Shown here: in pieces, positions 99-31,494 of the stretch
How positions within the stretch are numbered: the first letter of the stretch is position 1
Layout: each line of letters begins with the position of its first letter
DNA from: Perna viridis
Taxonomy: Eukaryota
Reading direction: 5' to 3'
Assembly: GCA_037379345.1 (NCBI GenBank)
Contig: CM074520.1
Location: 1,178,001-1,242,000 of the forward strand
DNA length: 64,000 bases
Made by a program: the position numbers and the translations under genes
The notes under the pieces: generated by a model
Told to the model about the DNA's origin: nothing
Databases searched by the model: none
The model's input: only the letters and a program-made list of their open reading frames with translations

Positions 99-1346
99 CT
101 TGTATTTATATTCTCCACTTGCAAGCTTTGGATAAATGATATAAGTTGTGTCCATCCTTCCGGCTGTACTCTCATTCTGTAGCAGGTACCCTTCTATTAT
201 CCATCACTCCTTCAGCGCCAATGAATGGAATATGATAAAACTTTCACAGAATATTTATGTAATATTGAAAATGTATGCTTTGATCTCCATGCTTTTAGGG
301 TGTTTCCATAGCAAGGCATGGACTTTGTCCCTTATGAATATTGGGTACCCATTTCTTACCTGTAGCATCTCCTACATCAGTGAATGGAATTGAATGTGAA
401 GTTTCTTTTTAGATTTTGATCTAAATGTTTTGTTCTCACTAAGCCAATCGTGGATTTTGTCATTCCTCGACATGGAATGTAGGGTATATATTTAGTAATC
501 ATTGCTAACCGGCTGTGCTCACAGGTTTTCTATTGAAGATGCATTTGTTTTAATTTTTTTCTGAAGTTTTTCATAAATCAAACAATAAAATTTAAAAGTT
601 CTTGACAAATTTACAGGTACTCTATATACTACACGTTTTAAACAGGAACAGACGCCAACAGTAAAATATTACTTTTAAATGTTTTTTTTCATGTAACCTA
701 CTATTGTTCAACTCATTTAGTTCAAGGTCAAATAGTTCATTTTTAAACAGTCTACATACTTTTTACATGAATTCCGTCCTTTCGATAATCGTACGAATTG
801 CTGATGGTAATGAAACACAACCTTTCTAGTTTTTAAGTAGATTGGTATCGAAAGTCATGCTTTGTTGCTCTGAATATGTATCGTTACAAAATTCATCACG
901 CTTTTTCATTTGAATACGAATATTATCACTACGACAATTAGAAAACTACTAAATACCCCTGTAACGATGTAAGGCACATTCTTTCGTTTTGTTGTTAGTA
1001 TGTTCTGAAGCAAAGTAGGATCGAGTTTTATGGTTGAAATATAAATATTACCAATTACAGATGGTGTCGCAATATTGAAGTTTGATGCATTGAATATTAC
1101 TTCTATGGTCCAATCAAATGTAAACCGAACATTGACACAAGGTGTATGGTCCAGTTCCCAGTCTGGAGAAATCTTGTGGACCTGTAAACTAATATTCTTT
1201 CTCTCTTCTTGGTCCTCGTTAGTAATATTTATATCTGTAAGTCGTTTCCTGCTTGGGTTTATAAAAGTAACAGTCGGAAATGGGTCACCTTCGATGATAC
1301 ACGTCAATTGTGATTTCTGCCCAGCAAAGATTGTTATGTTAATTTT

Positions 1347-1871
1347 ATGTTTCCTTTTAGAATTGTCAACTTTCCTTTCATCTATGGCAACATCCCTTCA
1401 GCACCTGCGTATGGAGTGTTCATATCACAACTCATACGTTATGCCAGAGCTTGCCGAAACTACACAGACTTTTTGTTTCGCGCTAGAACTCTAACAAATC
1501 GGCTTCTGGAACAGGGTTATGTTGCTACAAGATTGAAGTCATCACTACAGAAGTTTTATAGTCGTCATCATGAACTCGTGGATCGTTACGGTGTATCCAT
1601 CTGCACCATGAAAACTGATTTATTCAACGGATCATAGTTTTCCTTTCCCCGTTTGTCTACCCCGGACTTGACTTTTTATGAGCAACTCGGCGGGTGTTGC
1701 AGAGGACGCTTACCCTACCGGTGCACCGGGTCCATGCTCCCAGTTTTTAGTGGAGTCCGAGTTGCTCATTTGCTTTTGTTACTTTGTATGTATGATTATT
1801 AGCTACTTTATGTTCTTTGTTGTGTATGTCTGTTTTCCATGTCTGGTCTTTGTCCCTGGATTACATTCTTT
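1347..1871 (+). mobile_element. Penelope-like retroelement, 3' fragment (RT thumb end plus 3'UTR)
   Basis: IVNFPFIYGNIPSAPAYGVFISQLIRYARAC...LLEQGY...LKSSLQKFYSRHHELVDRY matches the RT C-terminus typical of mollusc PLEs. Near-identical sequence recurs several times in the window. Confidence 0.85.
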
Positions 1872-2032
1872 AGTGTGGTAGCAGTATAAGTCTTATTACT
1901 GCTATTATTTTCTACGTCTACCTCTGATAATAAACATTGGATGTAAAACGTTTTGCAGAAAAAAAATATTGTTTTGGTCTTTGTCTGCTGGTACAACAAG
2001 ATATTTGTCATGTATAGTAGACAATGTAGCAT
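1872..2032 (-). mobile_element. Penelope-like retroelement, internal fragment from upstream of the RT core, inverted relative to the adjacent copy
   Basis: ATLSTIHDKYLVVPADKDQNNIFF(+frameshift)CKTFYIQCLLSEVDVENNSSNKTYT contains the PLE 'PADK' motif. Confidence 0.8.
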
Positions 2033-4553
2033 TGTAATCCATTTCTCTATGAAAAAAACGAATTTTCATATTCGCCAGTCGCAACACTTTAAATAGTGTC
2101 AAATTACGGAAAGAGTTGGGGGCAATTTGACAATTTACATTTCCACTTAAATTAAGACTCGTCAAGTCATTTAAACCTCTAAATATTCCGTTGTTTATGA
2201 CAGGTATTTCATTATACGATAATGATAATTAAGTGTTTAAGTTCCTCAAACGTCCTTTCATCAATTATTTTAATTCCACAACGTGACCGTGTAACATGCC
2301 AAATGATTGGGAACTTCAATAATGACTTGTTGAGGTTCCCAAAATAACTAGGTCTGCTTATATTACCGATGATAACTAACACTTTCATGTTTTGAGGAAG
2401 TTCTGTGGGAAATAAATTCAAAATCTGATCATAATTGCAACCACTTCAATTCGCACCACAACTACATTCCTTTGGACAATTTTGGCAAAGAACATAGTGT
2501 ATTTTTGCGCACAGAAGAATATCTAAGGTGATACTAACATCTTCTGGTGGCACATAACAAATCACCTAAACTCATCGACAATAATATAATAGTGGACTAG
2601 ATATTTCTCCCTAACCACGTGGATATTGATGTTCACTTTGGGTAGCGAATTTAATATAAATTGAATTAACTATATATTCATTATGTTAAATTGCCATTTC
2701 GCACCTTATTTGTTACAATTTGTCGCTAAGTAATTACAATATTTAATTTTACTAGAACACTTAATGTTTGTCATTCACGTTATGATCTAACCTAATCCAA
2801 ACAGTTCTTATTGGTAATCTTAGCTTAAGGATGAAGGCAAGCGTTTCACAAGGATGCAATAATCTTAATCGGCTACATGTATGACTTTTTATCGATTCCA
2901 TACCCATATATTATGTTTTTAAGTCTTAACTAAGCACAAAATATTTAGGATGTCTAACATGATGGTCCAATTTCACCGCTTCCTTTACAAAGAGGAATAA
3001 CTTCGTAATACCTCGCTGTGATAAGTCCTTTTATAAAAGATTACATTCTTAAGGGAGAGTTGGCTGACCAATTAAATAAATTGATATCTTAAAACACTAA
3101 AGATCATCAAATCTATTTTGTTAAAAAAAGCAAAAAAAATAATCCTTTATTTCACAAAAAGCTATCTATGATACACTATGCTTTCCGTTCTATGTGGTTT
3201 TCATTTTTAAACTATGCTTCCATCATGCGAAAATGTCAAATTTAATTTATTATAATTTCGTCTTTACACCATAGTTTAATGATACTTTCATATTGCATAA
3301 CTTAAATATCTCTGAAGCAAGGTACAAACGAAAGCACCATGGATAAAAATGCGTGTACACCTATATGACAAGGAGCGGACCATTAAAGTAATAAAATACA
3401 TATAAAAACAAAGAGTACGAACTACATTACCTGGCTGCCCTGGACGGGTAGCAATCCCATGACGTTCTTTATAGATCAAGTCTGGTAAAATAGGAAAAAC
3501 ATATTTCAGACTTGTCACAGAACAAACGACCAGGTCATGGTAGCAAATTTGGACATAACTTTTGCACAACAAAATAAAATTCCCAGTACCAGTACTTTAG
3601 TGTAAGCCGCTGTCATTGTAATTTCTAACAAAGTGTATGAGTTAAGAGGAAAACATTGGGCAGCTGGAATGTTACTACATATGAGAGAATAGCTAACAAT
3701 CGAAAGTCAACGTCGTCGCATTTGTAATAAAGTTAATTTAAACTATTCCTTGTTTTGAAAAGAAAGTCAGGATAAGACACAGACTAGTGTGTTTATAAAT
3801 TAAAGATAATGTTCAATGACCCGTTCTAAAACAAAGAATTCCCTTTAGGTATATTTCCCATTTCCTCATTTATCTGGAATGTTTGATTAACCTCTAAACA
3901 TAAATGGTTAAGATGGTATGAACAACCAATATTTACGCATTCTTAATGTGAAAAAAAAAACAAATGATAAAAATATCCTAATTTTCTTTATTTTTTTCAC
4001 TTATTATCATGATAAAATGAAATACATGGAATAGTATCGTTAAGACTGTCATAGGCCGAAGACAGTGCTTTAATCAGATAACTAATCAGATAACTAATTT
4101 ATTATAAAATTAGGAATTGGACCAAATTAAACATTTACTTATCTTGAATGAAATTAAAGTTTATGTGAAAAATGGTCACTTTCAATTATTTTAATGATTC
4201 TGTGTGATAATCACACATAGCGAATTTAAGCTTTGGTTACACTTCCTTATTATTGCATTAAGCCATCCAAGCATCCAAGCCAAAATGTCATCATATGGAA
4301 CAGTGGTATAGATAGGTCCCCAGAAAAAAATTCATGAACAAATGAAAAAAATACAACTTTACCATAAAATGACTTTACAAATAAAAACAGCTTAATACTG
4401 TTATACAAAATTAGTACGTTCGTGTATTAAAATACTTAAAAATCTGAGAAAAGAAACAAAAATCACGCTCGATGTTACTTCATGTACAGAAAAAAATATT
4501 CTGAAAAATATCCAGGCTTTATTTTAGTGTTGTCATATTTCAATAGTCACCCA

Positions 4554-9705: not shown

Positions 9706-11205
9706 TTATGTATATGCTTGTCTCCGAGGTGCTACATTCACTCGAGTTGGATTAGCACGCGATATCGATTTACGAGGACTTCGGACTGTATCAAACCCTT
9801 CGTTCTCCACAGCAACATCTTTCTTACATTTCTTACTGCAGATTATGATTAGAATTATGAGTAACAATAGACCCCCACCTCCACCAGCGGCGTAGTACAT
9901 TAACATGTTTGGTGGTTCTTCCGGTTTGCTAGAGTTTGTCATTTTTACCACAGAGGTCACGTGAGTAGGAGTTGCAGCAGTAGTTGATTTCATCACTTTA
10001 TTCGTTGTAGTTGTCGATAAACTTGTTGATGTTGTTTTCGTCGGTTTTGTCGTAATAGTTGTTGTGATAGTGGTTGTTGTTGTCGATAAAATCACACGTA
10101 ATTCAACAGCACGTTGATCTTCTCCCAAAGTTGAACTAGCCGAGAGTGTCCAGTTCCCCTGGTCACGGATCGATACTTTTAGTATAAGGAGACTACTGTT
10201 CTGAAATACTACATGGTCGTTCTTAGTACTTGATGTTCCATAGATAGTGCCTGTCGGGTTTATCCATGTAACTGTAGGTTTAGGTTTCCCTTCAAAACTA
10301 CAATTTATTAACACAGACGATCCTTCATCAACGGTTACCTTACTTCTGTCACAGTAGACAATTTTCGGCGCAATACGATCAAGTTTTGAATCAGGAACAT
10401 TGACTAAAGAAATATATTTCAAATCATTTGGTAAATCACAGATTAAACTTGCCCAACTTGCTTTAATTGAAAAAGATGCATTATGGTTCTTAAGCCATTT
10501 GATATCGCTATCACAAACCCAAGGATTATCCGCCAGGAAAATACTCTTAAGATGGCTGAATAGTGGTGCCATTGTTGATGGTATAGAGGTCAGTTTGTTT
10601 CTTGATATATCCAAATAAGTCAACGATTTAAGTGAAGTAATAATACGCCACTTTAACGATTTCAGCTTGTTTCCGTGAAGATCAAGTTTACGCAGAGACA
10701 TAAGTGGCTTAATCAAACTTTCATCAAAAGAATTCAAATTCAGTTCTGCCAAAAGCAACTCACATAAACTACTTAGTCCGTCAAATGCACCGTTTTGGAT
10801 TTTGCAATTTTCGTTTCCAGTAAGATCCAGTGTTTTTAATCCAGAAAGTCCTTGAAAAATAAGTTGATCGATCTTAGAGATATTGTTATACGCCAGACTT
10901 AAAGTCCTTACGACAGGAAGGCCACTGAAAGCTCCTTTGTCTATTTCAGTGATTCCACAATATCTTAAAGTTAGATGTTGAAGCCCTGGAAAACTCATCA
11001 TTGAAATTTTTCTCAAAGAGTTCGGGTTGGTGTCCTTACCAGCTATTGTCAAAATTTTTACATTTTTTGGAATATTATTGGGAAGACTGCTATGAAAAGA
11101 CGATAAAAGACACGTACTTAATACGGCTCCACAGTGGCATCCGGGTATACAAGTCTGGCTCCTAACAATTAAAACACAACTAATGATGAAAATTGTCTTC
11201 AACAT
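9706..11205 (-). CDS. LRR + Ig type I membrane protein (LIG-type architecture as in Kekkon/LINGO/ISLR), 499 aa, single coding exon
   Basis: Signal peptide; LRRNT CIPGCHCGAVLSTC; about 7 LxxLxLxxNxL repeats; LRRCT NPWVCDSDIKWL...CDLP; I-set-like Ig; Thr-rich stalk; TM AAGGGGGLLLLIILIIIC; basic tail. Confidence 0.95.
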   Translation of the reverse strand: MLKTIFIISCVLIVRSQTCIPGCHCGAVLSTCLLSSFHSSLPNNIPKNVKILTIAGKDTNPNSLRKISMMSFPGLQHLTLRYCGITEIDKGAFSGLPVVRTLSLAYNNISKIDQLIFQGLSGLKTLDLTGNENCKIQNGAFDGLSSLCELLLAELNLNSFDESLIKPLMSLRKLDLHGNKLKSLKWRIITSLKSLTYLDISRNKLTSIPSTMAPLFSHLKSIFLADNPWVCDSDIKWLKNHNASFSIKASWASLICDLPNDLKYISLVNVPDSKLDRIAPKIVYCDRSKVTVDEGSSVLINCSFEGKPKPTVTWINPTGTIYGTSSTKNDHVVFQNSSLLILKVSIRDQGNWTLSASSTLGEDQRAVELRVILSTTTTTITTTITTKPTKTTSTSLSTTTTNKVMKSTTAATPTHVTSVVKMTNSSKPEEPPNMLMYYAAGGGGGLLLLIILIIICSKKCKKDVAVENEGFDTVRSPRKSISRANPTRVNVAPRRQAYT

Positions 11206-12017
11206 TTTGATACATGCACAGTTCCTTGGTACAAGATATCATAATTCGTCTTTAGTTCCGCGGTCGTTATTATATATCCTTCGAACATTCTATTTAGATC
11301 TTACGCATATACTAATCGAGAAAAAGATGGTCAAAATCATTTGAATGCTAATGCATAGATAAGAAACATTTAAGTAGCCATTGATCACCCATTAACGGAT
11401 AAACCGGGTATTAGATTGGACAAAATAGGAACCCACATCATCAGAAGAAAGTTGAATGTAAATTTTAAAGTTTGCAATTATTTCACTGAGTGGTTGGGAT
11501 ATTATCGTATAATTTATCAAGTTAATATATGTACTTCTTACTTTTCAAATTATATTTAACAAGAATTTATTTCCTTGTTTACATATAAGAGTTTATAGTT
11601 CCAATACAAAGAATACCTTCATTTGAACTGTCTTTCTGTTTTGGAGTAACATATTCCAGTTAAAGCTGTCCACATGAATTCTCAGTGTAATTGTGAAGAG
11701 TGAGGGGCTAATTTTTAAAAAGCATCGACACAAAATTTAACAAATTTGATAAATTGAAAGAAATGTCCAATATCTTTTGACAATTTGAAGACATCACTTG
11801 ATTTCAAGGGGGAGCTTGGAAGTTTTATAATTATTTTGATATAGACCTTTTTTTTTAACAATTAAATATAATGATATTGAAAAAATATTCTAACACTTTC
11901 AAATTACTCTACTTTGAATGGCATGCTTTTACTCTATGAAAATACATAACGCACAGGAAAAAAACATTTTTACTGTTAATATGGTGAAAATAAATATTTT
12001 GATCCTAACAAATCTTC

Positions 12018-12745
12018 CATCGCATCTACCCAAAAGAACTTGAGATAAAGGATACTACAGACTCTGTGAAGTTAGCCTCATATCTTGACCTACACTTAGA
12101 AATCGATGGTAAAGGAAAACTATTGACCAAACTTTACGACAAACGTGATGACTTTTCATTCAGAATTGTCAACTTTCGTTTCATCTGTGGCAACATCCCT
12201 TCAGCACCTGCGTATGGAGTGTTCATATCACAACTCGTACGTTATGCCAGAGCTTACCGAAACTACGCAGACTTTTTGTAGAACTCTAACAAATCGGCTT
12301 CTGGAACAGGGTTATGTTGCTACAAGATTAAAGTCATCACTACAGAAGTCGATTGCAGTATGGAGTATGCAGTTTTGAAAAGTTACGTTAGTATGGTCGT
12401 CATCATGAACTCGTGGATCGTTATGGTGTATCAATTTGCACCATGAAAACTGATTTATTCAACGTGTCATAGTTTTCCTTTCCTCGTTTGTCTACCCCGG
12501 ACTTGATTTTTTTGCACAACTCGGTGGGTGTTTCTAGAAAATCAGACGCTTATCCTACCAGTACACCTGGTCCATACTCCACTTTTTAGTGGAGTCTTAG
12601 TTGCTCATTTGCTTTTGTTACTTTGTATGTATGATTTTAGTTACTTTATGTTCTTTGTTGTGTACGTCTGTTTTCCATGTCTGGTCTTTGTCCTTGGGTT
12701 ACATTCTTTTGATTACCGCTATAACCTTGGTTCCCTTGATTATTT
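12018..12745 (+). mobile_element. Penelope-like element, 5'-truncated copy (RT 3' half plus 3'UTR)
   Basis: RIYPKELEIKDTTDSVKLASYLDLHLEIDGKGKLLTKLYDKRDDFSFRIVNF... followed by the shared 3'UTR ending ggttcccttgatta. Has a small deletion and a ~45-bp insertion near 12350-12392. Confidence 0.88.
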
Positions 12746-14204
12746 TGTAATTTTTACTGCTTATATCAATACCTTTATTAACCACTAAATATCGTACTAT
12801 TAACTTGTGTGTCGTCGATACCAGACAAAAGCAGACACACTCAACGTATTTTATAGAAAATAAATTAAACAACTTTAAACAACTTACAAGGTGATATGGG
12901 ACCAACGTTGAAATATAATTAGACTATGCTTAAAAGAGGGAAAATTTCGATTTTAACTTTATTCACTTGAAAATGTTTTCACGATAATCACCGTAGTAAA
13001 AGCACGTGTTGTGATGTACATTTGTGAAGCCAATTGAGAGAAAATATACCCTTTAGCCCTCCATTAGATGTAATACTAATAAATTATGCTAATTGGTGAA
13101 TTATTACGAGCCTAATGGTAGGAGTTGAAAGGCCATTCAATTAACCACATGGAGTTGGTCTGTTGCCGTAACCTACGCTTTAAAGTTATCAATACAACGG
13201 TTTTAGAAGTAGCTTCATGTATCAATCAATGCCATTCGTGTGCTCTTTAATCTTTTTACCGATTAATTCCTCTTATCCGAGATACTATTGTAAGTATATA
13301 TATTAGAAATGTTCATATTCGATTTTACGTAACACCTGCACTTAAATATGTTCTCCGAGTTTACAAGACATTAAAGAGTTATCGAAGTCTATGAAATTTT
13401 AAAATAGTTGGTATGCTAACACATTTACACAAACCATCTACAATTGCATGTCCGAATACTTGTAATGACAAAGTTGTGAGTCTCTTTCTTTTAAATATAA
13501 CTTGTGAAGACAGTCAAATTTGTAAGTGTAAATTAAGTAGATTAACTTTTTTTCATACATTCATATGGTCAAATTTTAAATTTTGTCCTCTTCAAGAAGG
13601 AGCCTTGTGGTATGTTAACTTCGATTAAAGCTCCTGTTATGAAGACCTTTCAGCTAAGGTACAAATGTCAACCTTACATATAATATGTATTAGATTAATG
13701 GCGTTAGAAACATTAAGAATCCCGTACTGTCTTGTTTAATCTGTAAACTAAATCAAACCTATATTTTCTGATACAGAAATTTAAAACATACACCTCATAT
13801 AAAAACAACAATGTTTGGGAGACAATCATTTCTGTGGGCTGCTGCAGTCCTCTTGAACTATCTACCTGAGGTGTTCAGACAGGGCTTAATCTTTAACCAA
13901 TTTAAATATATGATTTCGAAAATGGGGGTATGTTTTCATGAGTTGACTCAGGTGAGCTGAGCGTATCGACCAGACAATAATATATGTTACATGGCCTCTA
14001 AGACAACAAGTCGTAATGATGACATTCGACAATGGTATTTGTGAAAGCACATGCGCAGGCCAATGCATTTTACTGACTATCACAATCTGACAAATCAATT
14101 CGTTAATTCTCAGTAATGTCTTGATCTGTCAAATATTATAATAAAACCATGATTTATAAAAGTTCTATAATCTCAATAAAACAGTAAATAATAATAGGTA
14201 ACAG

Positions 14205-15946
14205 ATGAGGTACCGAAAAGACAGAATGACAATCAGTTCCTGCAGGAAATCCAAATACATATGGAGGTAAGGAGGTATAACTTATACGGGTAAATGTAAC
14301 TTAGTAGATTTATATGGCAGAGTTGGTTGTAAATAACATCGAGGAGTAGTATGTATTCATATATTCCTGTGTACATGTGTGTATCTATTGAAAAAAAGTT
14401 CGAAATAATTTCAAGCGTAAAAAAAAAACAGTTAAAATGCAACAATAAATAGTGATATTCATAAACATTTTGGAAAAAAGTGGACATTGTTTTCCTAAAA
14501 CCACTAATTGGTAAACATAGACTGCCTGAGAGATACAATGTTCAAATTAACATGTAAAACTCGAACCACTCGTTCTAGCCTTTTTACTTAATGTAATTAA
14601 TATAACAAAAAACAAAAACAAAACAAATAGACATTGATCAATAATGAACTCTTGAAAAGAAATATTTATAACAAATAGAACAGACTTGTTGACAATTGAG
14701 CTAACCTGACCGCTTTGAAATTTTAATTTTTAGATTGGTGTTTCTACAGCTAGTGATTGGTATTTTTGTCGTTTATAAGAGCTTTAACGAAGCAATACTC
14801 AAACATTCAAATGAAGTCTTCAGCTTCAATGACAATCTACAATCTGTTAAAACTCCAAATGATACATGGATTCAAAGAGAAAACTCCTTGAGTCATACAC
14901 ATATCCCTACCTTCTTTCCTCGGTGTAAAAAACAACGCAATGTAGTATTTGTTAAAGTCCACAAAACCGGAAGTACAACTGCCTGGGGAATATTTGCTAG
15001 ATTTGCTCATAACAATGGTTTAAACATGGTACTTCCTAAACGAGAGAGTGGTATTCAGTTCAACTATTTGTCGTCAAGGAATATCAAATTGTCAGAGACA
15101 ATCTTGCCCCCACCAAGAGGAGAGACCTACAATATTCTTTGCAATCATGCACTATACAATAAGGAACAGTTTGATAAATTGATGCCCCCGGATACAGTCA
15201 GGATAGGAATTGTACGCGACCCGGTGTCCGTTGTCAAATCTGCTTTCTTCTATTTCGGATTGTACAACGTGGTCAAAAACCGTCTTCCATCGACTGACAG
15301 TCACATGATATTTCACAAATTTCTGGAGCACAAAATATATCAGCTCTACGACTTGCATCGGCCTCTGTTTAATGGTATGGCGTATGACTTTGGCATACCA
15401 ACAACACAACTTTCGAATACGTCATTTGTTTTAAACTATATCAATATACTAGACAGAGATTTCAAACTTGTAATCATTGCTGAATATTTTGATGAATCTT
15501 TAGTTCTGATGAAGAGATATTTATGTTGGGATTTTCAAGACATTTTATACTTAACACAAAATAAAGGCACATGGAGGACATACAATCGACCCAACATGAC
15601 TTCTGACGACATTAACAGGATAACTACTCTATCAAAAGCTGACAGTGTACTTTACAACTTCTTCAAAGTTAGATTGATTGGCCAAATTCAAAGAGAAGGT
15701 CCAAGTTTTGAGCATGAAGTACGACATTTCAAAAAAGTGACGCAACAGCTACGTCAGTATTGTGTCACCACAGAATCTATCAATTCAATGACCATACCGT
15801 CAACAACATGGAACAAAGCTTTACATTTCGACCGTGGACTTTGTAATAGGCTGATTACATCAGAAATAGAACTAGTCAGGCAGCTGATCAGGGAAAGTAA
15901 GAAAAAGCTGTCACAAAGAGCACAGACCACTAAGATGGTGAAATAA
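14205..15946 (+). CDS. Galactose-3-O-sulfotransferase (Gal3ST) family type II Golgi protein; join(14205..14266,14734..15946)
   Basis: 5'-PSB motif VFVKVHKTGSTT, 3'-PB motif GIVRDPVSVVKSAFFYF, and FKLVIIAEYFDESLVLMKRYLCW. Exon 1 MRYRKDRMTISSCRKSKYIW ends AG|gtaagg (phase 2). It joins ttttaatttttag|A (branch-like gctaac at 14700) in frame, giving a basic N-terminus and signal anchor. Confidence 0.92.
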
Positions 15947-17583
15947 CAATGCAATGCTGGGCAGCGTATTTGATACTCATTGTTTCCTTGTATTAACCTA
16001 AGTAATTCGACGACATTACTGTTGAATTCTAATATTAAGTATTTGATTTCTATGGAATCTATTCTATTGTCATTCTTCTACATTTTTTCTCATAATTTGA
16101 CATATTGAGAGGTTTTAATATAACATAAGTATTTAGGAAGCTAGTCTTTATACCCGAGCACTTTGTCTATATAGTACAGGTATATTTTGTTTTATTTGCA
16201 AACCATCTCAAAACTTTTGGAATACTTTATTAAGTTAGAAATGAAGTAAGCAAATAGACTAATCTACTCAGTTTTATATTGTTTTCTCCATTAGTATAAT
16301 TATTATAAACTATCATTGCTAGTATTTCTTTTTCCTTATAAAGACATCAATCTGGTGTAAATTGATTCTTTCATCTACTAAGTAGATTGTATTATTTCAT
16401 TGATATTTGATTGTTTATCATAAATTTATGTGTTTAATACTTTACACTTTCTGCTTTGTGATTTAATGAAAAATGATAAAAAATAAAATGTGGTAATGAC
16501 TCTTAATTGGCTGTGCAGACGTGATACTACAATACATTACTCACATTGTGAATGCATGATATTATGTAAGATTTGTTAAGCGACATATGATGGCTGTTTT
16601 GAATCTTAGTTCGGCATTTCTGACTTAATTTTCCAGTTGTCGATTTCACAAACTCGTAAATTAAATTAATACTTAAACGACTTTTTGTAATTTAAGATGC
16701 TGTAACGTTGCTGATTCGATCATACTTTCTTCCTGACGTTTTTATGGATATTAAGAATAAAACTGGGACCATTTCAGTAAACTTTAGGGCATATAAAGGC
16801 AAGAAATGTCATTTATTTTCTTCTTTGGATAAAATTATGTAGGTACTGAACGATCGTGTACTGTAATATGTCAATGGAAAATGCAATGGCGATTCTATGT
16901 AGATTTCTCCGAACATCTTACAGTTGTATTATAGTATAGTGACATCGACGGTGTCATGTGTTTTTCTCACTGGTAAACAATAATTTATGATTCTGTATGA
17001 AGTGCATGTTTGGAGCTTTTTGATATGTGTATTTGTTTTGGAATAGGTTTCTCATGGTGGGAATTTAAGATTACAAAAATGTCTTCGTTATTGATATGCC
17101 ACTACTCAATAATTGTAGACGAAACAACAAAATTCGTTTTTAAAAATTAAATAACTTGGCCAAAATTCTTAGGCCTACTTGCTTGAAATATTATTTTACC
17201 TACGGAAAATTTTAGCCTAATCACGTCTTTTTTTTCAAATGAATTGCAAATATTTTTGTGGAGAAAGCTCATTCTTATACATAAAATGAATCGGCTGCTA
17301 GTAAGTAATTTAATTAAAAGATTTGTCTTAGAAAAACTGCGCTGTCGGCGCTTGTTAGCCTTTCGCACACAATTTATTATTGTAGTAAATCAAGTGACTT
17401 GCAAATTGAAATTTATGAATAGTGCAAAATAGTGCCGGTCAAAATTTGCACAATTGCAAATACCTGTATATATATTGATTTTTGATATCCAATCTGTATT
17501 TTATGTTTGATCTTTGTATTGTATTTGCTTGACCCAAATGGGTGTAATTTGCAAATAAAGTATTACTAACGTTTGAATAATAG

Positions 17584-17840
17584 CCCAAATATGACAAAAT
17601 ACGAAAGTGCGCCAATACGGGATTTAGCCGTCCAATACGAATTTTACCAGTCCAATACGAGATTTAGTCAGTACATCATATTGGCCTGGGCCAATATGAC
17701 GTATTGGACTAGATAGTCAATAAAGGTATAATTGCGTAAGGTTTTCCATATTGGCTGAGTTATTGGTCCTCGGCTCAGTCCAATATGGTTACGCTCGGAC
17801 AAATAACTAAGCCAATATGGAAAACCTTACGCAATAATAC
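17584..17840. mobile_element. Non-autonomous foldback element with CCAATA(C/T)G subrepeats and two hairpins; class uncertain
   Basis: Long hairpin attgcgtaaggttttccatattggct / agccaatatggaaaaccttacgcaat (17731-17835); short hairpin tcatattggcc-tg-ggccaatatga (~17676-17699); three tandem ccaatacg units. Confidence 0.65.
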
Positions 17841-19859
17841 TATACTATCGATATAACCAGTGAGGAAACTAGTTAAAACCAAAGAAATAATATTATACAA
17901 CTAAGGAAGACTTCTCCAATAGAATTTCATTATAAAAATCAATCGTTCAGTACCCATTCTGTTAATTTCTATGTTTAAATATCAGGAAAAAAAAGTTTTA
18001 TAATTTTGGCCATCATATTTGAAATATTGTAAAATAGCAATGTATTAGTGTGTGTAGTTGAATTTAACGGCCTGGTGTGTAGTATTTGAAAAATCGCTTA
18101 TTCTCTAAATTGTTGAGTTTTTCTTTATTTAAGGTTATTAGATGTGCACAAAATACCAAATGTAAAAATAAAGTAATTAAAAAAATGGACTTTTTCTCTA
18201 CATTTTTACGACATAAATAATATTGTAGCTGACTTTTTGCGGAGTGTACGAAAGTACGAAATTAACAATGAAATTGAATACCTATATTTGTAGGTAGTGA
18301 TTGCATGGCGAATAGGATTTTTTTTTAAATCAAAGTTTTATTGATGAATAAACGATCTGATTTTGACCTGTTTTTTTTATCTCCTTTGACTCCAGTAAGA
18401 TATATTATCAAGCCGGTTGATACAGTCAGTTGTAGCACAGTGCGGAAGTTTTTAAAATATTTCAATACATATCCATGACATGTATAAAAACATGGCCGAC
18501 TAATATTCAACTACTGAACTAAAACCCTTTTTCAGACGTTCTACTCCAAATTATATCTTACATGTACATGTTTTGAATATGAATTAATTTTAATCAACCA
18601 TTAATTTTCAGTGTAACATGGTTTTATCCTGAAGCATGTCTTTTAGTTACTATAAAAGTTTGTAGTCATGATACCATTGAGAGTTATACCAGTAATCAAA
18701 CACCAATATTTCCATCAATTATTAAATGTGATATAAGATCAATTTTCTTTTCATGCGAAAGAAGTAATATAAATCTGTTTTCGTATTCGTTGTTGTGGAT
18801 ATATTCGATGCAGGATTACAATAAGAGATAAAAGAGATAAGTTTTAAATCTGATTTTTTTCACCAATTACTTAGTAGTTTGTTTGGAAGTTGTAAATATA
18901 ACTGTGAATACGATACAATTCTCCAACTGCCAGGCAGGTAGACAGGCATAAGCCGAACACAATTTTCTAGTGGAGAAACATTTAAATTTAACTGTTAAAA
19001 CCTGAATTGTAAATGCATGAACGTTATTTTGATAGTTTGGTTAATATCCTCTTACATTTAAAAGTGATTATAAAAATGGCATGACTTTTAAGGTTCTATT
19101 GTCCCTACACCTAACACCATATCAATGTTTTAGAAATGAAACAATAAAAACAAATCGGTTAAAACATAATGTGGCATACCAATAAATGATCAGGCATGAA
19201 ACTTTTTTTCTCTTTACGTTGATTTTGTTTTGATGAAAGAGGCACTGATTTTCACGAAGTTTTTTATCTATGTGTGTGTGTTCTTTTAAACTGTTCATTG
19301 TTTTGTTTTGTTTTTAATTGATTTACTACTTACTTTTGCTTGAGATCGATGTATAGACCTGTAATTTTGTTTAACCTTTTCTTTGTTTTTGTATGAAATG
19401 ATTGAGTCAAATTGTCATTGAAAACAGCCCCTTCAACATTGAAAATATATAAAACATTGCAAAATACTTTGAAAAGTCCCATTTTTCAGAAAATGTTTTA
19501 TCAATAATAGATTCTTCATTTTTAATCACTATAGCAACCACCGGTTTCCATTACTGTCATTTTTCATCCTAGCTAAAAGTGTTAAACTAAACTAAACTGT
19601 GGAGTGTTGACATACAGCTTATCCACTATAAACCACCTAATCAACGATAACATATACATTTCATCGATTTTTGGTTACTTTTGCAAGTTCGTTATTCGTT
19701 GAAACATATACATAAAATCGGCAAAAATACCGAAGCATCATTTCGGAAAGACAATTCAGGATATTATTCAAGACACCAGAACCCAAGGACATGACCAAAA
19801 CATGAAAAAAGGAAATAGAGACGATCCATCACATACTGAGTATGATACAATGACATACA

Positions 19860-20262
19860 AAAGAGTAACCAAGGTAACCAAGACTCCAACGGAAACCAAA
19901 AGAATGCAACCTACGGACAAAGACCAGACACTGAAAACTGACACACAACAAGGAACACAAAATAATCAAACTAATGGACACAAAGTAACAAAAGTATATG
20001 AGCAACTCGGACTCCACTAAAAACTGGGAGCATAGACCAGGGTAAGCGTCCTCTGCTTTTCTAGAAACACCCGCCGAGTTGCTCATAAAAAGTCAAGTCC
20101 AGGGTAGACGAAAGATGAAAGGAAAACTACGACACGTTGAACAAATCAGTTTGCATGGTGCAAATGGATACACCATAACGATCCACGAGATCATGACGAC
20201 GACCATTAAACTTCTGTAGTGGTGACATCAATCTTGTAGCAACATAACCCTGTTCTAGAAGC
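19860..20262 (-). mobile_element. Penelope-like element, 3' fragment
   Basis: LLEQGYVATRLMSPLQKFNGRRHDLVDRYGVSICTMQTDLFNVS* plus the 3'UTR on the minus strand. Confidence 0.87.
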
Positions 20263-20627
20263 TTAAATGTAAGAAGTAAATTAGAAAAAAAGAAAAACAA
20301 AACACACACAAACCTGAGACACTTACAACAGGAACTACTACCAAAAAAAAAAAAAAAAAAGGAGTAACAAGTAACATCAGGTGTTCCGGAGGATAGACAT
20401 GGTCTGCTCCGAAAGTGGCATCAGCCATATTGTAAGTGAGTAAACTCTAGTAAACGTGAAGATAAAAAAGATTAATACAATAGACGACCGTAAAAATATT
20501 GGTTAAATGGTAGACAAAGTTTTTATCATGTGTGCTATAGTTGGCAATTTTCGTGTGTATACAGTCAAACGAAAACACTAGGTTAACTTGACGATGTATT
20601 ATAATGATAGGTTCAAGTTCATCGCTT

Positions 20628-21413
20628 TTACACAACACGAGCACTTGGAGGTCCTGGTGTTACTTTTCTATTAAACAAAAAGCTCATTAATTTCTTTCTG
20701 AACAAAAATGCAATCGTACTTGACACACCAATAACCGTTACCCCGGCAACGGCTCCCCCTATAGCCGCAGAATTGTTATTTGATTTTTCGTCCTCGTTCG
20801 CGAAATTCAAGTTATCAGATGCAATTGTCGAAGAACCCATGGAACCGGTGACATGTTGAAAACCATTTTGATTCTGATTAAGGTTTTGCTGATGTTGGTT
20901 TTTATCAGGACTTGGTCCTTGAAGATTATTCTGACTCGGAGTTTGGAGCATAGACTTGACATTTGTTTTTATTGATAGTGTTGTTATCATAGCGTGTGTT
21001 ACTGGTTTTAAAAATCCTTGCGAGGGCATTTTAAATTTAACTGTCGTTTGAGGTGGTAGAGTTGTCTTTTTCAGCGACACCATCACTCCAGATGTTTTAC
21101 GAGTACCTTCAGCATATGCCGCTATAATCCAACCTCCAAAGTATTTTTGTTGTACTTGAGAAATGCACAGAGAACCATTGTTATGCAACACAAAATTAGT
21201 ATTTGTAAAATTCACGATGATACCACTTTTCTGGTGTTTCCAACTTGCCTTGGGGAACGGATCACCATCAACAACACATGGTAGACACAGAGAGTCTCCA
21301 GGAAAAACTGTCATCAGATGACTTCCACAATTTATTTCAGGATCCCTGTGGCTCAACACACATCCACCTGAACATAATAAAAACAAAAATAAAAAATTCA
21401 GAACCGTCATCAT
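20628..21413 (-). CDS. Single-Ig-domain type I membrane protein, 261 aa, single coding exon
   Basis: Signal peptide; Ig-like domain (TVFPGDSLCLPCVVDGDPFPKASW...NGSLCISQV...GGW); Thr- then Gln/Asn-rich stalk; TM AAIGGAVAGVTVIGVSSTIAFLF; RKK stop-transfer; short tail. Confidence 0.9.
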   Translation of the reverse strand: MMTVLNFLFLFLLCSGGCVLSHRDPEINCGSHLMTVFPGDSLCLPCVVDGDPFPKASWKHQKSGIIVNFTNTNFVLHNNGSLCISQVQQKYFGGWIIAAYAEGTRKTSGVMVSLKKTTLPPQTTVKFKMPSQGFLKPVTHAMITTLSIKTNVKSMLQTPSQNNLQGPSPDKNQHQQNLNQNQNGFQHVTGSMGSSTIASDNLNFANEDEKSNNNSAAIGGAVAGVTVIGVSSTIAFLFRKKLMSFLFNRKVTPGPPSARVV

Positions 21414-22134
21414 CTTATTCCAAAAACCGTATTTCGTTTAATTTGGTATTTTCCTTGTAAATTCTAATTCATACTGAACGTCGTCAGTTTATATCTGCTT
21501 CAGGTTTTGACTGACGTCTTAGTATTAGGAAGGTATTAAGAAAGGCATGTTCTCTCAAAAGTGTGCAAGTTCTGTTTGTCAAATATTACATCGAAAAAAC
21601 AGTGATTAGTTCCCTTTATATCCAACCTTTACTCAGGTAATTTTTCTTTGATATTAAACAATTGTGATACAATCTAAATCTTCTCTCCCCAAGTATGCAA
21701 ATATCACTTTTCATTTTGATATGCCTTCTTTTTCATCCTTATGATATATACATGCTTAACAAGATTGCAATAAAATGAAATAAATCAGCTTTTAATCTTC
21801 TATTGATTCTACAGCAGATCATTTGAAAAGATATTCGTCAGTTGACTCGTACAATGGCTTTACTGACGAGCACAATATCTATATCCATCATGCAGATGGA
21901 CATGCGGCGGTTTAGTATTTCAGTGGGATACCAATATAGATTGTACTTTTGCGTAAGGTCCAATACATGGTATTACGAACTTTGATCTTACATGTCACTA
22001 TCTGGAATGGTTCGTTCTACTGTTACATATACGCGGAACTTCCTTGATTCACAGAAATCATGATTTGGAAAATAACAATTTATTCCTTTAAAATCATATC
22101 GCACTTTGTAGCAATGCAGAAGGCAAAACCGAGG

Positions 22135-22275
22135 ATAAAACAATGCCAGGAAACCAAAAAGACAGCAGACAAACAAAACAATTGTCAGGAAACCGAAAAA
22201 AATACAACAGACGAACAAAACAATATCAGGAAACCAAAAAGACAGCAGACGAATAAAATAATGCCAGGAAACCGA
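22135..22275. repeat. Degenerate ~40-bp minisatellite, about 3.5 copies
   Basis: aaacaatgccaggaaaccaaaaagacagcagac-like units recur. Confidence 0.75.
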
Positions 22276-23124
22276 CCGAAAAGATAGTAGGCGAAGAACA
22301 AACCGTACCTTATAACTGAAAAGTAAACAAAGAAAAAAAACGAACGAACCGAACAACGTTTATAAAAACAAAGCTTCCGCTAAAAAGTGATGTGTATGAA
22401 CAGTAAATAAGTCGTCAAAAGAGGAATCACTTTCGTGTGCATACTTTCTCTGTCTTATGGGAACAACCGTATTGGTTAATACTTAACTATTAATTATAAG
22501 AATACGACATCTTAGTTACCTTACCGAATAACTGAATCGACGTAGGAGGACGGACAAACAACTAATGATTTTTTTTTATCTCTATACAAAATATGTACTA
22601 TTTTGTTTAGAGTTATTGTTTAAGTTCGAAGAGGAGCATCAAATACCTTATAAAAAGTTCAAAATGAAACTGAAACAACACTGTCCTATCAGATAAATCA
22701 TTTTTAAAAAGTATATGTATGTGTTATATTAAAGAATGATACAATGTTTGAATTCTTAATTTGATTTAACACATGTATTCTGTATAACAATCTCTTTCTA
22801 AAGACAATCAAATAGGCTCCTAGAGAGAATAATAATCTGGTCTGACAAATAACTGCCATGATAACCTACATAAAAATAAAACGAATAAACACTTCAATCA
22901 AAAGATTCACTTCTCATTAAGTCCGGTCTTGGCTATTAAATAAAGCATCTGCTAAAAAGAGAAGTGAATGCACCTTAAATAATTCATCAAATGAGATATC
23001 GCTTTTGTATAGCATGGGTTGTGTCCTTATTGTATGACTTGTGAAGTATCGTGATTCTCAACCCCGCACCATGTACAAAATTAGGATTGATTTTGCATAC
23101 GATGCGGGCATAACTCTGTAGGTT

Positions 23125-23420
23125 TAAACTGGTCTAGAGCTGGCATGTCAGTTAACTGCTAGAAGTAGTCCTTAGTTTGTTCCTTTGTTTAATTTACATT
23201 CAGTTTCTTCATTTTCGTTGTAACAAGGGACAGACCTTTTTGAACAGATGTTTAGGTGTGTTTTATTGCGTAATATTTTTTCCACAGTGGCCAGATTTGA
23301 AAGGGGGTTGTGATCACGCCAAAGTATATTAACCCCGCCGAATTTTTGCGCCTATTCAATCTCAAGAATTTCAGGCCTCTCTATGTCTTGTTTTGTATTC
23401 ACCTTTAGTTTATTTCTATG
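23125..23420 (+). mobile_element. Degenerate copy of a short non-autonomous bivalve retro-repeat (retrozyme/PLE-associated type)
   Basis: Blocks tagagctggcatgtcagttaactgcta and ggggttg...ttaaccccgccg-aatttttgcgcct resemble an abundant mussel repeat as I recall it. No second copy in the window. Confidence 0.45.
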
Positions 23421-23741
23421 TTACTTGAGTATATATCATGAATTGTACGATCGGCGCCGTATACATAAAAAAAATTGCAACGTGTTTTGAAAACACATAA
23501 AAAGCATAATTATGTTTATCATAGTTATGTTTATCCTATTTTAGGAACACCATGAAAAACATGTTTCAGGCTAACGAATTAATTCATGAAAAAAAAAAAA
23601 TAAATAAAAATCATATGGTATATCACTCAGGGGCACCAGTGTTTGGTTGAATACCTCTTCTATATATATTGCGTAGTTTTGGTAGTTTATTAAACCACAA
23701 AAAAATTTAATGTATTTACTTCTGTTTTTGGAACTGAAAAG

Positions 23742-24260
23742 TTACTACGCAGGCTTTTTGTACCGTGCTATATTTCTTACAATTAGGCTTGTGGAAAAGG
23801 ATTATTTTGCTTCAAGATTGAAGTCACCACTACAGAAGTTTTATGGTCGTCATCGTGAACTCATGGATGGTTACAGTGTATCCATCTGCACCATGAAAAT
23901 TGATTTTTTGAACGTGTTATAGTTTTCCTTTCGTCTTTCGTCTACCCTGGACTTGACTTTTTACGAGCAACTAGGCGAATGTTTCTTGAAAAGCAGAGGA
24001 CGCTTACCATACCGGTGCACATGGTCCATGCTCCCAGTGTTTAGTAAAGTCCGACTTACTCATTTACTTTAATTACTCTGTATGAATTATTTTGGATATT
24101 TTATGAACTTTGTTGTGTGTGTGTCTGTTTTTCATGTCTGGTCTTTGTCCCTGGATTGCAGTTTTTCCGCTAGAATATTGGTTCCCTTAATTAGTCTTCC
24201 ATGTTAGCACTATGTCCCTGGATTATATTCCGCTAGAATCTTGGTTTTCTTGATTACTCA
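23742..24260 (+). mobile_element. Penelope-like element, 3' fragment with duplicated terminal ~55 bp
   Basis: YYAGFLYRAIFLTIRLVEKDYFASRLKSPLQKFYGRHRELMDGY... plus 3'UTR. The block gtccctggatt...ccgctagaat...ttgatta occurs twice. Confidence 0.85.
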
Positions 24261-26031: not shown

Positions 26032-27391
26032 TATGATCTCTAAGAAATATGAAAGTGGACCGGACGGTTCAACGAGGAAAATTGCTATTATTTTTTTTTT
26101 AGTCAAACGTTTGCTTGGTGTCATTTGTGTGCGCAATAATCACATTAAAATCGAGAGAGCAACATTCCCCCTGTCATAATGAACTTTTTTATTAACAGAT
26201 AACCTTTTATATCTTGTATCACTTTTTGGTATTCACTAGTCTTTACTTTTTGATACGACCTCGTTAATGATGACGATTGTGTTTTTTCGGCCTTGACTAT
26301 CCTTTGCGCATCACGCATGACCAGCCATTTCAGGGATTGTGTCCTGCTAGCGTCAATTCTATTAAATTCGATATTTCGCTACCCTCCCCCCCCTCGTTTT
26401 AGCATTTCGTTTTTACAGTGTTCCCTCGTGTGGTCCAGTCGGTTAGTTGATTGGTATCACCTGTTTGACCCATTAATTCCATAACAATAGAAATTTCTGC
26501 TACATCGGTTTTTATTAGTTTTCTATTGAGTGCTACTTAAAATATTTAACATTAAACAAATTCTGTGTAAAATTAGTCGTGTTACTAGAATTAACATCTG
26601 CAGTGGGGTGCATAATGAAAACTGCCACTAGACGGACAGGTCCCTAGGCAGTGCTAAGGTATGTTCATTTTAATTCTTAGTGAAATACATATACTGGTAT
26701 TCGTTTTCGTTTTTTCTGGTGATATGTTTTGTGTTTCTATGGCTTAATACTGCGCGTATGTCCTAACGATTAAATGGATATGATATAACGATTTGTTTGT
26801 CTTTGTTGTTGTTGTTGATGTCGTTTTTTGTGTGTGTGAGAGTGTTCAAAAAGATGTCAATATCCAGTAGCAAGGGTTCAAAAACTTTTAGTTCTAAAGC
26901 AGGGGCACAGTTTAAAGATAACTCAGTGAAAACAGTTAGTACTTGTAGACGCCATTTCTATATTAATGACTTTCCATAACCTCATATAATTATATTTGTT
27001 GCTCTGAAAAAAAAAAACACTTCTCAGTCATACTTATACTAGCTCCCTAAATAAAGTCGAGAAATTGTACAAAAAAATATCACCGTTTCTAACGCTAAAA
27101 AACAAGTTGATGACATGCAGCGAATGACAAGGAATGGAAAGTAAACCACGAAATGAAGACACTGAAGACGAACAAAACTGATCGGAAGTAGTTTATATCA
27201 AATTTTCATACAAGTTTATACAAAAAAAGCTACAGCATCCCGTACGTTCGATACGTGATAAGAACATGTAGTCCCTGAGGAGAACAAATAAAAGTAATGA
27301 AGGAGAGGAGGAAGGATTTGTCATAATAAAATGGCAGAAAATATTTTCGATAAAAGTTTGATATACTGTTTTGACTATCTCATTACTTCAC

Positions 27392-27750
27392 ATGTTGTCG
27401 GTACAAACGTTGTTTTTACCCTTGTCTCTTTGTTGTCGGTACAACAGTTGTTTTTTATCCTTGTTGTCAGTCCAAATGTTGTTTTTTATCATTGTTGTCG
27501 GTACAACCATTGTTTTTATCCCTGTTGTCGGTACAAACGTTGTTTTTTTATCCTTGTCTCTTTGTTGTCGGTACAACAGTTGTTTTTTATCTTTGTTGTC
27601 GGTCCATCCGTTATTCTTATCCTTGTTGTCGGTACAACCATTGTTTTTATCCCTGTTGTCGGAACAACCGTTGTTTTTATCCCTGTTGTCGGTACAACCG
27701 TAGTTTTTTTTTTATCCCTGTTGTCGGTCCTACTGTTGTTTTTCATCCTT
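27392..27750. repeat. Minisatellite of ~30-33-bp units, about 11 copies
   Basis: tgttgtcggtacaaccgttgtttttatcc(c/t) repeated. It produces the overlapping spurious ORFs here. Confidence 0.92.
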
Positions 27751-27813
27751 GTATCTATTTTCTTTATTTGCAAAGTTATAATGACCTTAATATCATTAAA
27801 ACAAATGATAGCG

Positions 27814-27910
27814 GACATTGTATAAAAATGAAATACGGCGAACATTTTACAAAAACGATTTATGGAGAACATTGTATAAAAACGTATTACGGCCGACATT
27901 GTATAAAAAT
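27814..27910. repeat. ~27-bp degenerate tandem repeat, about 3.5 copies
   Basis: acattgtataaaaa(t/c)g...tacgg units recur. Confidence 0.7.
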
Positions 27911-31015: not shown

Positions 31016-31494
31016 GTAAGCACTAGTTGATTTTTAACATTATTAAGAACGATATGTTTACTTGTAAATTATGTTTGAATAATATAATAGGTGCCTAAAC
31101 GAATATGAATTGAACATTTCACTATACAGCTTTTATGATGAACAACAACATACTTGTACAACACGAACGTCGATCACAACATTTCACTATAAAATGCTTG
31201 TACAAAGTCAAAAACGCAGTGGTTAATTTCCCTTTTCTACAGTGTATCCCTGATTTTGCCAGTCCATGTATTATTAAATATGCCCCTTCTCGAAATATGA
31301 TTATGAGTTCAGTAATTTTTTCAATATCTTTATATAAAAAATAATAAGTTCATGTACAAACATTATTTTGTCGCTAAAACATAAATATCAGCCCAAGAGG
31401 TATCGCTTCAGAACTTGTATGTTTGTTTCAGAATATTTTTAATACAACTTCATTTTTTCTTTGCAGATCTTTGAAAATCTTACCGCCATCTGAA

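What the first reader, a model, noticed from the sequence alone, without database searches (positions are those of the whole stretch)
10090..21345. Ig domains with rewired disulfides: no F-strand Cys, shared C-x16-C A/B-strand pair
Seen: both intact proteins lack the canonical D-x-G-x-Y-x-C cysteine (DQGNWTLSA; YFGGWIIAA, with Trp at the tyrosine-corner position). Both keep the B-strand Cys and have an extra Cys exactly 16 residues before it (YCDRSKVTVDEGSSVLINC; NCGSHLMTVFPGDSLCLPC). The Ig-only protein has two further Cys (SLCLP on strand B, SLCIS on strand E) that could pair across neighbouring strands. Established: the B-F disulfide is the Ig-superfamily hallmark. Inference: a lineage-specific I-set variant stabilised by an A-B (plus B-E) disulfide. 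The same pattern in two very divergent paralogues argues against decay.
Basis: partly seen in the sequence, partly recalled or inferred. Interest (0 to 1): 0.7.

Follow-up and report, generated by a model that had tools for sequence, protein, structure and literature searches.

The report
Mollusc receptors with rewired immunoglobulin disulfide
A small family of mollusc cell-surface proteins has lost one of the two cysteines that normally pin an immunoglobulin domain together and gained a new one on the neighbouring strand, which likely forms a replacement bond of a type already seen in a human immune receptor.

Summary
Two intact genes (A: LRR-Ig-mucin-TM, 9706-11205; B: Ig-mucin-TM, 20628-21413; both minus strand) encode I-set domains with a Cys 17 residues before the B-strand Cys and no F-strand Cys. 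This is conserved, not decay: 12 of 12 non-redundant family domains (named taxa: two Mytilus species, an oyster, a periwinkle) keep both Cys (spacing x15-16) and lack the F Cys. The two Cys are 2 of only 4 invariant columns. Only 4 of 1310 canonical B-F domains have a Cys there. The spacing fits the A-strand anchor that neighbours the B Cys, so a cross-strand A-B disulfide is likely, but no distance could be measured. The bond type is known: human KIR2DL4 D0 has a crystallographic Cys10(A)-Cys28(B) bond, Hydractinia Alr I-set domains have predicted A-B bonds, and CD4 D2 is the mirror case. What differs is family-wide loss of the F Cys, which would leave A-B as the only pairing. The same pattern occurs in one sponge and one insect hemicentin domain. 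The B-E pair is confined to gene B, and B's paralogy to A rests on adjacency and shared rare residues. Verdict: real, a new variant of a known kind.

The parts
9706..11205 (-). Gene A: one uninterrupted ORF, 499 aa: signal peptide, LRRNT, LRRs, LRRCT, I-set Ig, Thr-rich stalk, TM, short tail
   Evidence: model resembles NGL/Lingo/AMIGO/SALM ectodomains; 99% identical protein in Logan contigs
10090..10371 (-). Gene A I-set Ig domain (residues about 279-372)
   Evidence: Pfam I-set 49.7 bits; block pLDDT 74-89
10351..10353 (-). Gene A A-strand Cys285
   Evidence: invariant in alignment A3
10300..10302 (-). Gene A canonical B-strand Cys302
   Evidence: invariant
10144..10152 (-). Gene A F strand W-T-L: Trp at the tyrosine corner, Leu at the canonical Cys position
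   Evidence: sequence; alignments to solved Ig domains
10438..10515 (-). Gene A LRRCT cap with only Cys1 and Cys3 (C231, C256); Cys2 and Cys4 both absent, as in the two Mytilus relatives
9838..9906 (-). Gene A predicted transmembrane segment
   Evidence: hydrophobic stretch in the translation; inferred
20628..21413 (-). Gene B: single-exon ORF, 261 aa: signal peptide, I-set Ig, low-complexity stalk, TM, short tail
   Evidence: unspliced contigs in 4 of 4 runs guessed to be RNA, 3 studies
21069..21344 (-). Gene B I-set Ig domain with four Cys
   Evidence: AF2 pLDDT 92, pTM 0.81; I-set matches Z 13-14, rmsd 1.6-2.4
21327..21329 (-). Gene B A-strand Cys29
   Evidence: last residue of strand A in the model
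21276..21278 (-). Gene B canonical B-strand Cys46
21285..21287 (-). Gene B Cys43 on strand B (predicted outward-facing; candidate B-E bond)
21165..21167 (-). Gene B Cys83 on strand E (predicted outward-facing; candidate partner of Cys43)
21123..21131 (-). Gene B F strand W-I-I: Trp at the tyrosine corner, Ile at the canonical Cys position
   Evidence: sequence
20700..20768 (-). Gene B predicted transmembrane segment
   Evidence: hydrophobic stretch; inferred
906..2560 (-). Third, broken LRR-Ig-TM paralogue: stops, frameshifts and a repeat insertion (about 1350-1871) in the Ig A strand. B Cys kept; F strand W-T-I without Cys; a Cys codon at 1881-1883 just before the insertion may be the A Cys
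   Evidence: groups with gene A and the Mytilus relatives at 99/96

Best explanation
Genes A and B encode mollusc single-pass surface proteins whose I-set domain has no F-strand cysteine and likely closes a cross-strand disulfide between a new A-strand cysteine and the retained B-strand cysteine instead. Shown: the residue pattern, its conservation from bivalves to a gastropod, and the I-set fold of the model. Inferred: (1) the new Cys occupies the A-strand anchor, the backbone neighbour of the B Cys, with both side chains pointing into the core; (2) the bond forms in the secretory pathway and is mainly structural, tying the edge strand A to B, while a bulky residue (Leu/Ile/Phe) at the old F position and Trp at the tyrosine corner fill the core; (3) it arose through a three-Cys intermediate (A+B+F, as in KIR2DL4) followed by loss of the F Cys in an early mollusc LRR-Ig gene; (4) gene B added a second, surface bond between strands B and E; (5) the proteins act as non-catalytic receptors or adhesion molecules of the LRR-Ig kind, most likely in recognition at the cell surface.
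For: A and B Cys are 2 of 4 invariant columns in 12 sequences at 37% mean column identity, none with an F Cys; 17 of 17 family domains versus 4 of 1310 canonical domains. The 15 non-family LRR-Ig proteins with an Ig hit among 118 scanned all keep an F Cys. 7 of 11 LRR-bearing members have all four LRRCT Cys plus the A Cys, so it is not a displaced cap Cys, and 3 of 11 lost cap Cys2 and Cys4 together. Gene B has no LRR, and its predicted mature ectodomain has exactly four Cys, all in the Ig domain. The model puts C29 in strand A, C43 and C46 in B, C83 in E. IgStrand defines the A anchor as the backbone neighbour of the B Cys and shifts the E anchor by two (PMC12051499), which by my count puts C43 opposite C83. 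KIR2DL4 Cys10(A)-Cys28(B) is seen by crystal structure and mass spectrometry. Among B-only domains, an A Cys occurs in 2 of 6 in disulfide-rich proteins and 0 of 42 in the disulfide-poor, mostly titin-like ones.
Against: No coordinates were available, so no S-S distance was measured; registers come from sequence spacing and DSSP. KIR2DL4 spacing is x17 in a different Ig subtype, and its C74S mutant, which has only the A-B bond, formed soluble aggregates. I-set domains can lack the B-F bond altogether (telokin; Alr), so a replacement is not required. P0160 lacks cap Cys4 but keeps Cys2 and has an extra BC-loop Cys, so its pairing could differ. No relative with the B-E pair was found. Gene B is no closer to the family profile than many canonical domains (rank 393 of 1669). 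The 2 of 6 count is tiny, and by my reading two of the six are misaligned and two titin-like. No function was tested.
Confidence: 0.78

Rival explanations
1. The A-B bond is a strained, redox-labile (allosteric) switch that thiol isomerases open to change ligand binding or trafficking, not just a structural staple.
For: The KIR2DL4 A-B bond is a -RHstaple reduced by PDI; the CD4 D2 cross-strand bond is discussed as redox-active. Strand A is an edge strand (established Ig topology).
Against: The KIR2DL4 switch needs the third (F) Cys, absent in 17 of 17 family domains. No redox data exist here. This rival is compatible with the best explanation rather than exclusive of it.
Confidence: 0.2
2. 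The two Cys do not pair with each other: the B Cys stays free and buried, and the A Cys links to another chain or to an LRR/LRRCT Cys.
For: Gene A has three further Cys in its LRRs (C83, C134, C148). P0160 has an incomplete cap. Ig domains with a lone core Cys exist (fish CD4 D1).
Against: Gene B has no LRR yet keeps both Cys. The cap is complete in 7 of 11 members. Spacing is fixed at x15-16. A free B Cys would not be expected to stay invariant at about 20-50% identity.
Confidence: 0.12
3. Gene B is not a paralogue of gene A and reached the same Cys pattern independently.
For: Ig identity to family members only 18-25%; rank 393 of 1669; in one tree it sits on a long branch among sponge hemicentin domains. 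The pattern arose elsewhere too (P0007, P0131).
Against: It lies 9.4 kb from gene A on the same strand with a similar uninterrupted layout. It shares three rare characters (A Cys, no F Cys, Trp corner). A second tree places it with the bivalve members (SH-aLRT 93), and the AU test does not reject one clade (p 0.66).
Confidence: 0.15
4. Decay or chance: degenerate genes that happen to have lost a Cys.
For: A broken paralogue lies next door. Neither gene body was covered in 3 raw RNA runs for gene B or in 4 contig runs for gene A.
Against: Intact ORFs; pattern conserved across bivalves and a gastropod; gene B covered by contigs in 4 of 4 runs, with only two variants, both synonymous.
Confidence: 0.02

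Closest known systems
Human KIR2DL4 D0 domain (PDB 3WYR; bioRxiv 10.64898/2026.02.18.706601, abstract and passages seen)
   Same: A Cys on strand A bonded to the canonical B-strand Cys across neighbouring strands (Cys10-Cys28), in place of the B-F bond; shown by crystal structure and mass spectrometry.
   Different: KIR2DL4 keeps the F Cys (Cys74) and switches between two bonds; spacing x17; one gene among the KIRs. Here the F Cys is gone in every member found, in an I-set domain, across two mollusc classes.
Hydractinia allorecognition Alr I-set domains (PMC9546547, passages and section 11 seen)
   Same: Invertebrate I-set domains without the B-F bond and without the tyrosine corner, with invariant Cys on strands A and B predicted to bond in 28 of 31 models.
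   Different: The paper says all Alr domains lack the canonical paired cysteines, so their A-B pair appears to use other positions; different architecture (V-I-Fn3, no LRR); no homology tested.
CD4 domain 2 cross-strand disulfide (PMC4354306, passages seen)
   Same: One canonical Cys lost, a new Cys on the adjacent strand pairs with the survivor.
   Different: Mirror image: B lost, C-F bond formed; a recent mammalian gain, discussed as redox-active.
Vertebrate LRR-Ig proteins (NGL/LRRC4, Lingo-1, AMIGO, SALM, LRRN)
   Same: LRRNT-LRR-LRRCT-I-set-TM layout; best fold matches for gene A and for B's Ig domain (Lingo-1, TMq 0.89); LRRN2/3 are the next sequence hits.
   Different: The LRRN-type hits keep the F Cys; the genome has its own canonical LRRN-like gene (L007). 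The family has a Thr-rich stalk instead of FnIII.
Trk domain 5 and Siglec V-set domains (B-E bond; recalled, not confirmed by any search)
   Same: Recalled to lack the B-F bond and to carry a B-E intrasheet bond, like the pair proposed for gene B.
   Different: Not verified here (searches gave no passage); no Trk d5 among the 50 fold matches shown; no kinase domain here.
Oyster CgLRRIG-1 (PMC6994640, passages and supplement part 1 of 3 seen)
   Same: Bivalve LRR + Ig + TM protein; knock-down lowers haemocyte phagocytosis of Vibrio.
   Different: Described with three LRR domains; no sequence or accession in what I could read (primer table is a picture), so its relation to this family is unknown.

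Membership tests
I-set immunoglobulin domain | A/A' split, ABED and A'GFC sandwich topology | tested here: met
   AF2 model of B, pLDDT 92; Z 13-14, rmsd 1.6-2.4 to NCAM2, titin, DIP, MuSK
I-set immunoglobulin domain | B-strand Cys and C-strand Trp | tested here: met
   both invariant in 12 of 12
I-set immunoglobulin domain | F-strand Cys forming the B-F bond (canonical form; known I-set members lack it) | tested here: not met
   0 of 17 domains
I-set immunoglobulin domain | Tyrosine corner D-x-G-x-Y | tested here: not met
   Trp in 11 of 12, none with Tyr; G kept in 11 of 12; gene B also lacks the Asp
LRR-Ig (LIG-type) surface proteins | Signal peptide, LRRNT-LRRs-LRRCT, Ig, single TM | tested here: met
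   gene A: (signal and TM read by eye); gene B has no LRR
LRR-Ig (LIG-type) surface proteins | Four-Cys LRRCT cap | tested here: not met
   gene A keeps two; 7 of 11 LRR-bearing members keep four
LRRN orthologues | Ig with B-F Cys followed by FnIII; groups with LRRN | tested here: not met
   separate canonical LRRN-like gene in the genome; family apart from LRRN in the tree
KIR2DL4-type A/B/F cysteine triad | A-strand Cys beside the canonical B Cys | tested here: inconclusive
   spacing x15-16 vs x17; strand assignment fits but no distance measured
KIR2DL4-type A/B/F cysteine triad | Third Cys on strand F allowing a switch | tested here: not met
   absent in 17 of 17
KIR2DL4-type A/B/F cysteine triad | -RHstaple geometry and PDI sensitivity | not testable with these tools
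   needs coordinates or experiment
Trk receptors / Trk d5-like domain | Two Ig domains and a cytoplasmic kinase | tested here: not met
   one Ig and short tails in both ORFs
Trk receptors / Trk d5-like domain | B-E bond in the same register as Trk d5 (recalled) | tested here: inconclusive
   no Trk d5 row among those shown; no passage found
Oyster CgLRRIG pattern-recognition receptors | Orthology to CgLRRIG-1 and microbe binding | not testable with these tools
   no sequence available

The most novel reading that the evidence does not exclude
The A-anchor Cys is a recurrent evolutionary exit from the canonical Ig disulfide: A+B+F triads (KIR2DL4, ray LRRN3) resolve into fixed A-B domains (this mollusc family, sponge and insect hemicentin domains). 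This family has kept a strained staple bond as its only core bond since bivalves and gastropods split because it serves as a PDI-operated redox switch on a recognition receptor.
Probability: 0.2. Interest if true: 0.6.

Novelty: new variant of a known kind. Interest (0 to 1): 0.36.

Why it matters
The family offers natural, long-conserved Ig domains whose only core bond would be the A-B cross-strand type that is a labile switch in KIR2DL4. They would let one test what makes such a bond structural rather than allosteric, and how Ig domains move between disulfide patterns. They also warn that motif-based annotation (D-x-G-x-Y-x-C) undercalls such domains: gene B falls just below Pfam cut-offs. 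The significance is modest because rewired Ig disulfides, including A-B, are already known.

Tried and rejected
Single-domain search of the 1.84-billion library was swamped by multi-Ig giants. It gave no new family members and served only as the background set, which is therefore biased towards hemicentin-, IGSF10- and titin-like proteins. One search was run with a uselessly strict E-value and returned nothing. Own-genome searches with either Ig domain or the LRR part and a scan of 100 kb upstream and 40 kb downstream found no further family members; these are lower bounds. Idea that the A Cys is a displaced LRRCT Cys4: rejected. Idea that gene B's signal peptide is really a splice acceptor (it reads like a pyrimidine tract plus AG): rejected, because 4 of 4 contigs run through it unspliced; the joints 21396-23589 are poly-A artefacts. 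No RNA holder was on record as RNA; three raw RNA runs showed no depth over most of gene B and four contig runs had no cover over gene A, neither of which shows silence. Idea that these are Trk d5-like domains: not supported; the Trk and Siglec B-E bonds could not be confirmed from papers. ESM Atlas gave generic Ig clusters only. The scan's earlier findings returned nothing. Six paper searches bearing on the pattern or the family (listings seen) showed no paper describing this Cys pattern in a mollusc family; subscription journals are not covered, and the original CgLRRIG paper (PMID 28889011) was seen only as a reference.
Full report
Setting. The window is G000:C10:1178001-1242000 of a 723 Mb animal genome; the closest named relatives of gene A are Mytilus proteins, so it is probably a bivalve. 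The finding spans two minus-strand ORFs: gene A (9706-11205, 499 aa, LRR-Ig-Thr-rich stalk-TM) and gene B (20628-21413, 261 aa, Ig-stalk-TM). An unrelated galactose-3-O-sulfotransferase ORF lies between them on the plus strand. A third, broken LRR-Ig paralogue lies at about 906-2560.

Observation. All quoted motifs are present. A: C285 and C302 are 16 residues apart, with W-T-L where canonical domains have Y-x-C. B: C29 and C46 are 16 apart, with extra C43 and C83, and W-I-I on strand F. Gene B is covered by unspliced contigs in 4 of 4 runs guessed to be RNA (3 studies), while the neighbouring single-copy genes are essentially not covered, so these are likely transcripts that include the signal peptide region; the two variants seen are synonymous.

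Conservation. Three searches of the 5.8-billion collection gave a family with members named from Mytilus edulis, M. californianus, Crassostrea virginica and Littorina saxatilis, plus unnamed ENA/Logan records. One search scored only 7992 candidates and listed the best 120 of 344 hits, and it missed two known members, so the range is a lower bound. In an alignment of 12 non-redundant domains the invariant columns are the A Cys, the B Cys, a BC-loop Gly and the C-strand Trp; none has an F Cys and 11 have Trp at the tyrosine corner. Counting cluster members, 17 of 17 complete domains have the A Cys at x15 (1) or x16 (16); one truncated member has both Cys and was left out. The 15 non-family LRR-Ig proteins with an Ig hit among the 118 scanned keep the F Cys. 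In the background set, domains with gaps at the B or F column or without a clean F motif were dropped before counting; 4 of 1310 canonical domains have a Cys at x15-16, as do 0 of 42 B-only domains in disulfide-poor proteins and 2 of 6 in disulfide-rich ones. An earlier, looser count gave 3 of 1356 against 3 of 74 (Fisher p 0.002; domains are not independent). The two clear cases are single domains in a sponge (Oscarella) hemicentin-like protein and an insect (Apolygus) hemicentin, which points to independent origins.

Is the extra Cys the partner of the B Cys? Seven of 11 LRR-bearing members have a complete four-Cys LRRCT cap as well as the A Cys, three lost cap Cys2 and Cys4 together, and one (P0160) lacks only Cys4. 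Gene B has no LRR, and four Cys in its predicted mature ectodomain. The AF2 model of B's domain is confident (pLDDT 92) and places C29 at the end of strand A, C43 and C46 on B and C83 on E; it matches I-set structures at Z 13-14. The IgStrand paper (passages and one section seen) defines the A anchor as the backbone neighbour of the B Cys and shifts the E anchor by two residues. With antibody light-chain numbering (recalled: positions 6 and 23, 20 and 74 are cross-strand neighbours at non-hydrogen-bonded sites), the x16 spacing puts C29 opposite C46 facing inward and C43 opposite C83 facing outward. This is inference from register; no distance was measured. Cys at both of the latter positions occurs in 0 of 1551 background domains, but only gene B shows it.

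Are A and B paralogues? Not shown by score: B ranks 393 of 1669 domains against a profile of the other 11. One tree of 45 domains placed B on a long branch outside the family, with the other 11 members and the pseudogene together at 88/87. A second tree of 23 placed B with the bivalve members (SH-aLRT 93), left the periwinkle out, and did not reject one clade (p-AU 0.66). Adjacency, shared layout and three rare shared residues make paralogy likely.

Mechanism. Most likely a structural cross-strand A-B disulfide replaces the B-F pin, with bulky residues filling the core, and gene B adds a surface B-E bond (confidence 0.78 for A-B; somewhat lower for B-E). The proteins have short tails with no catalytic domain and most likely serve as recognition or adhesion receptors; this is inferred from architecture and by analogy to oyster CgLRRIG-1, whose membership could not be tested.

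Comparison. The bond type is known. KIR2DL4 D0 has a Cys10(A)-Cys28(B) -RHstaple seen in the crystal and by mass spectrometry, reducible by PDI, switching with Cys74 on F (preprint; abstract and passages seen, supplements not requested). Hydractinia Alr I-set domains lack the B-F bond and have a predicted A-B bond in 28 of 31 models. CD4 D2 lost the B Cys and gained a C-F bond. CD200 and CD200R carry extra intrasheet bonds (passages). B-E bonds in Trk d5 and Siglecs are recalled only. Passages or abstracts of seven other papers added nothing decisive; one search gave only that telokin lacks the B-F bond. What I did not find described is a family in which the canonical B Cys is paired to strand A with the F Cys lost throughout.

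Verdict. Real and conserved; a new variant of a known kind; interest 0.36. The boldest reading not excluded, a recurrent triad-to-A-B route with a retained redox switch, has probability about 0.2.

Noticed in passing
P0197 and P0205 (LRRN3 of the rays Mobula birostris and Hypanus sabinus), Ig domain 425-513: A Cys at x16 before the B Cys together with the canonical B and F Cys: a KIR2DL4-like triad, absent from the five other vertebrate-type LRRN hits.
   Followed up: partly
P0007 residues 1518-1606 (Oscarella pearsei) and P0131 residues 452-539 (Apolygus lucorum hemicentin-1): Single hemicentin Ig domains with A Cys + B Cys and no F Cys among otherwise canonical neighbours; probable independent origins.
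   Followed up: partly
window 906-2560 (-): Broken third paralogue with stops, frameshifts and a repeat inserted in the Ig A strand; F strand also lacks Cys.
   Followed up: partly
window 9706-9840 (-) and P0163 tail: Cytoplasmic tails of gene A and the oyster member share a five-residue motif (FDTVR); tails of gene A, gene B, P0005 and P0006 contain a (V/I)-x-P motif, recalled as resembling ciliary targeting signals.
   Followed up: no
window 31378-34443 (+), 52425-55262 (-) and L031: Large single-exon protocadherin ectodomain ORFs; the L031 copy is nearly identical at its start to the one at 52425, suggesting a recent tandem duplication.
   Followed up: no
window 14705-15946 (+): Intact galactose-3-O-sulfotransferase ORF (Pfam PF06990, E 4.6e-52) between the two Ig genes.
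   Followed up: no
window 10303-10305 and 10153-10155 (-): N-glycosylation sequons at N301 (next to the B Cys) and N351 (strand F) of gene A; glycans may add stability.
   Followed up: no
window 47500-49030, 42280-42730, 27300-27930, 39700-40090: Tandem-repeat tracts that give long spurious ORFs and a strong GC skew near 48-50 kb.
   Followed up: no
window about 1350-1871, 12020-12742, 19980-20270, 23800-24250: Copies of a common interspersed repeat with very high depth in the laid runs; longer reverse-transcriptase-like frames occur in L020 and L025 (recognised by eye).
   Followed up: no
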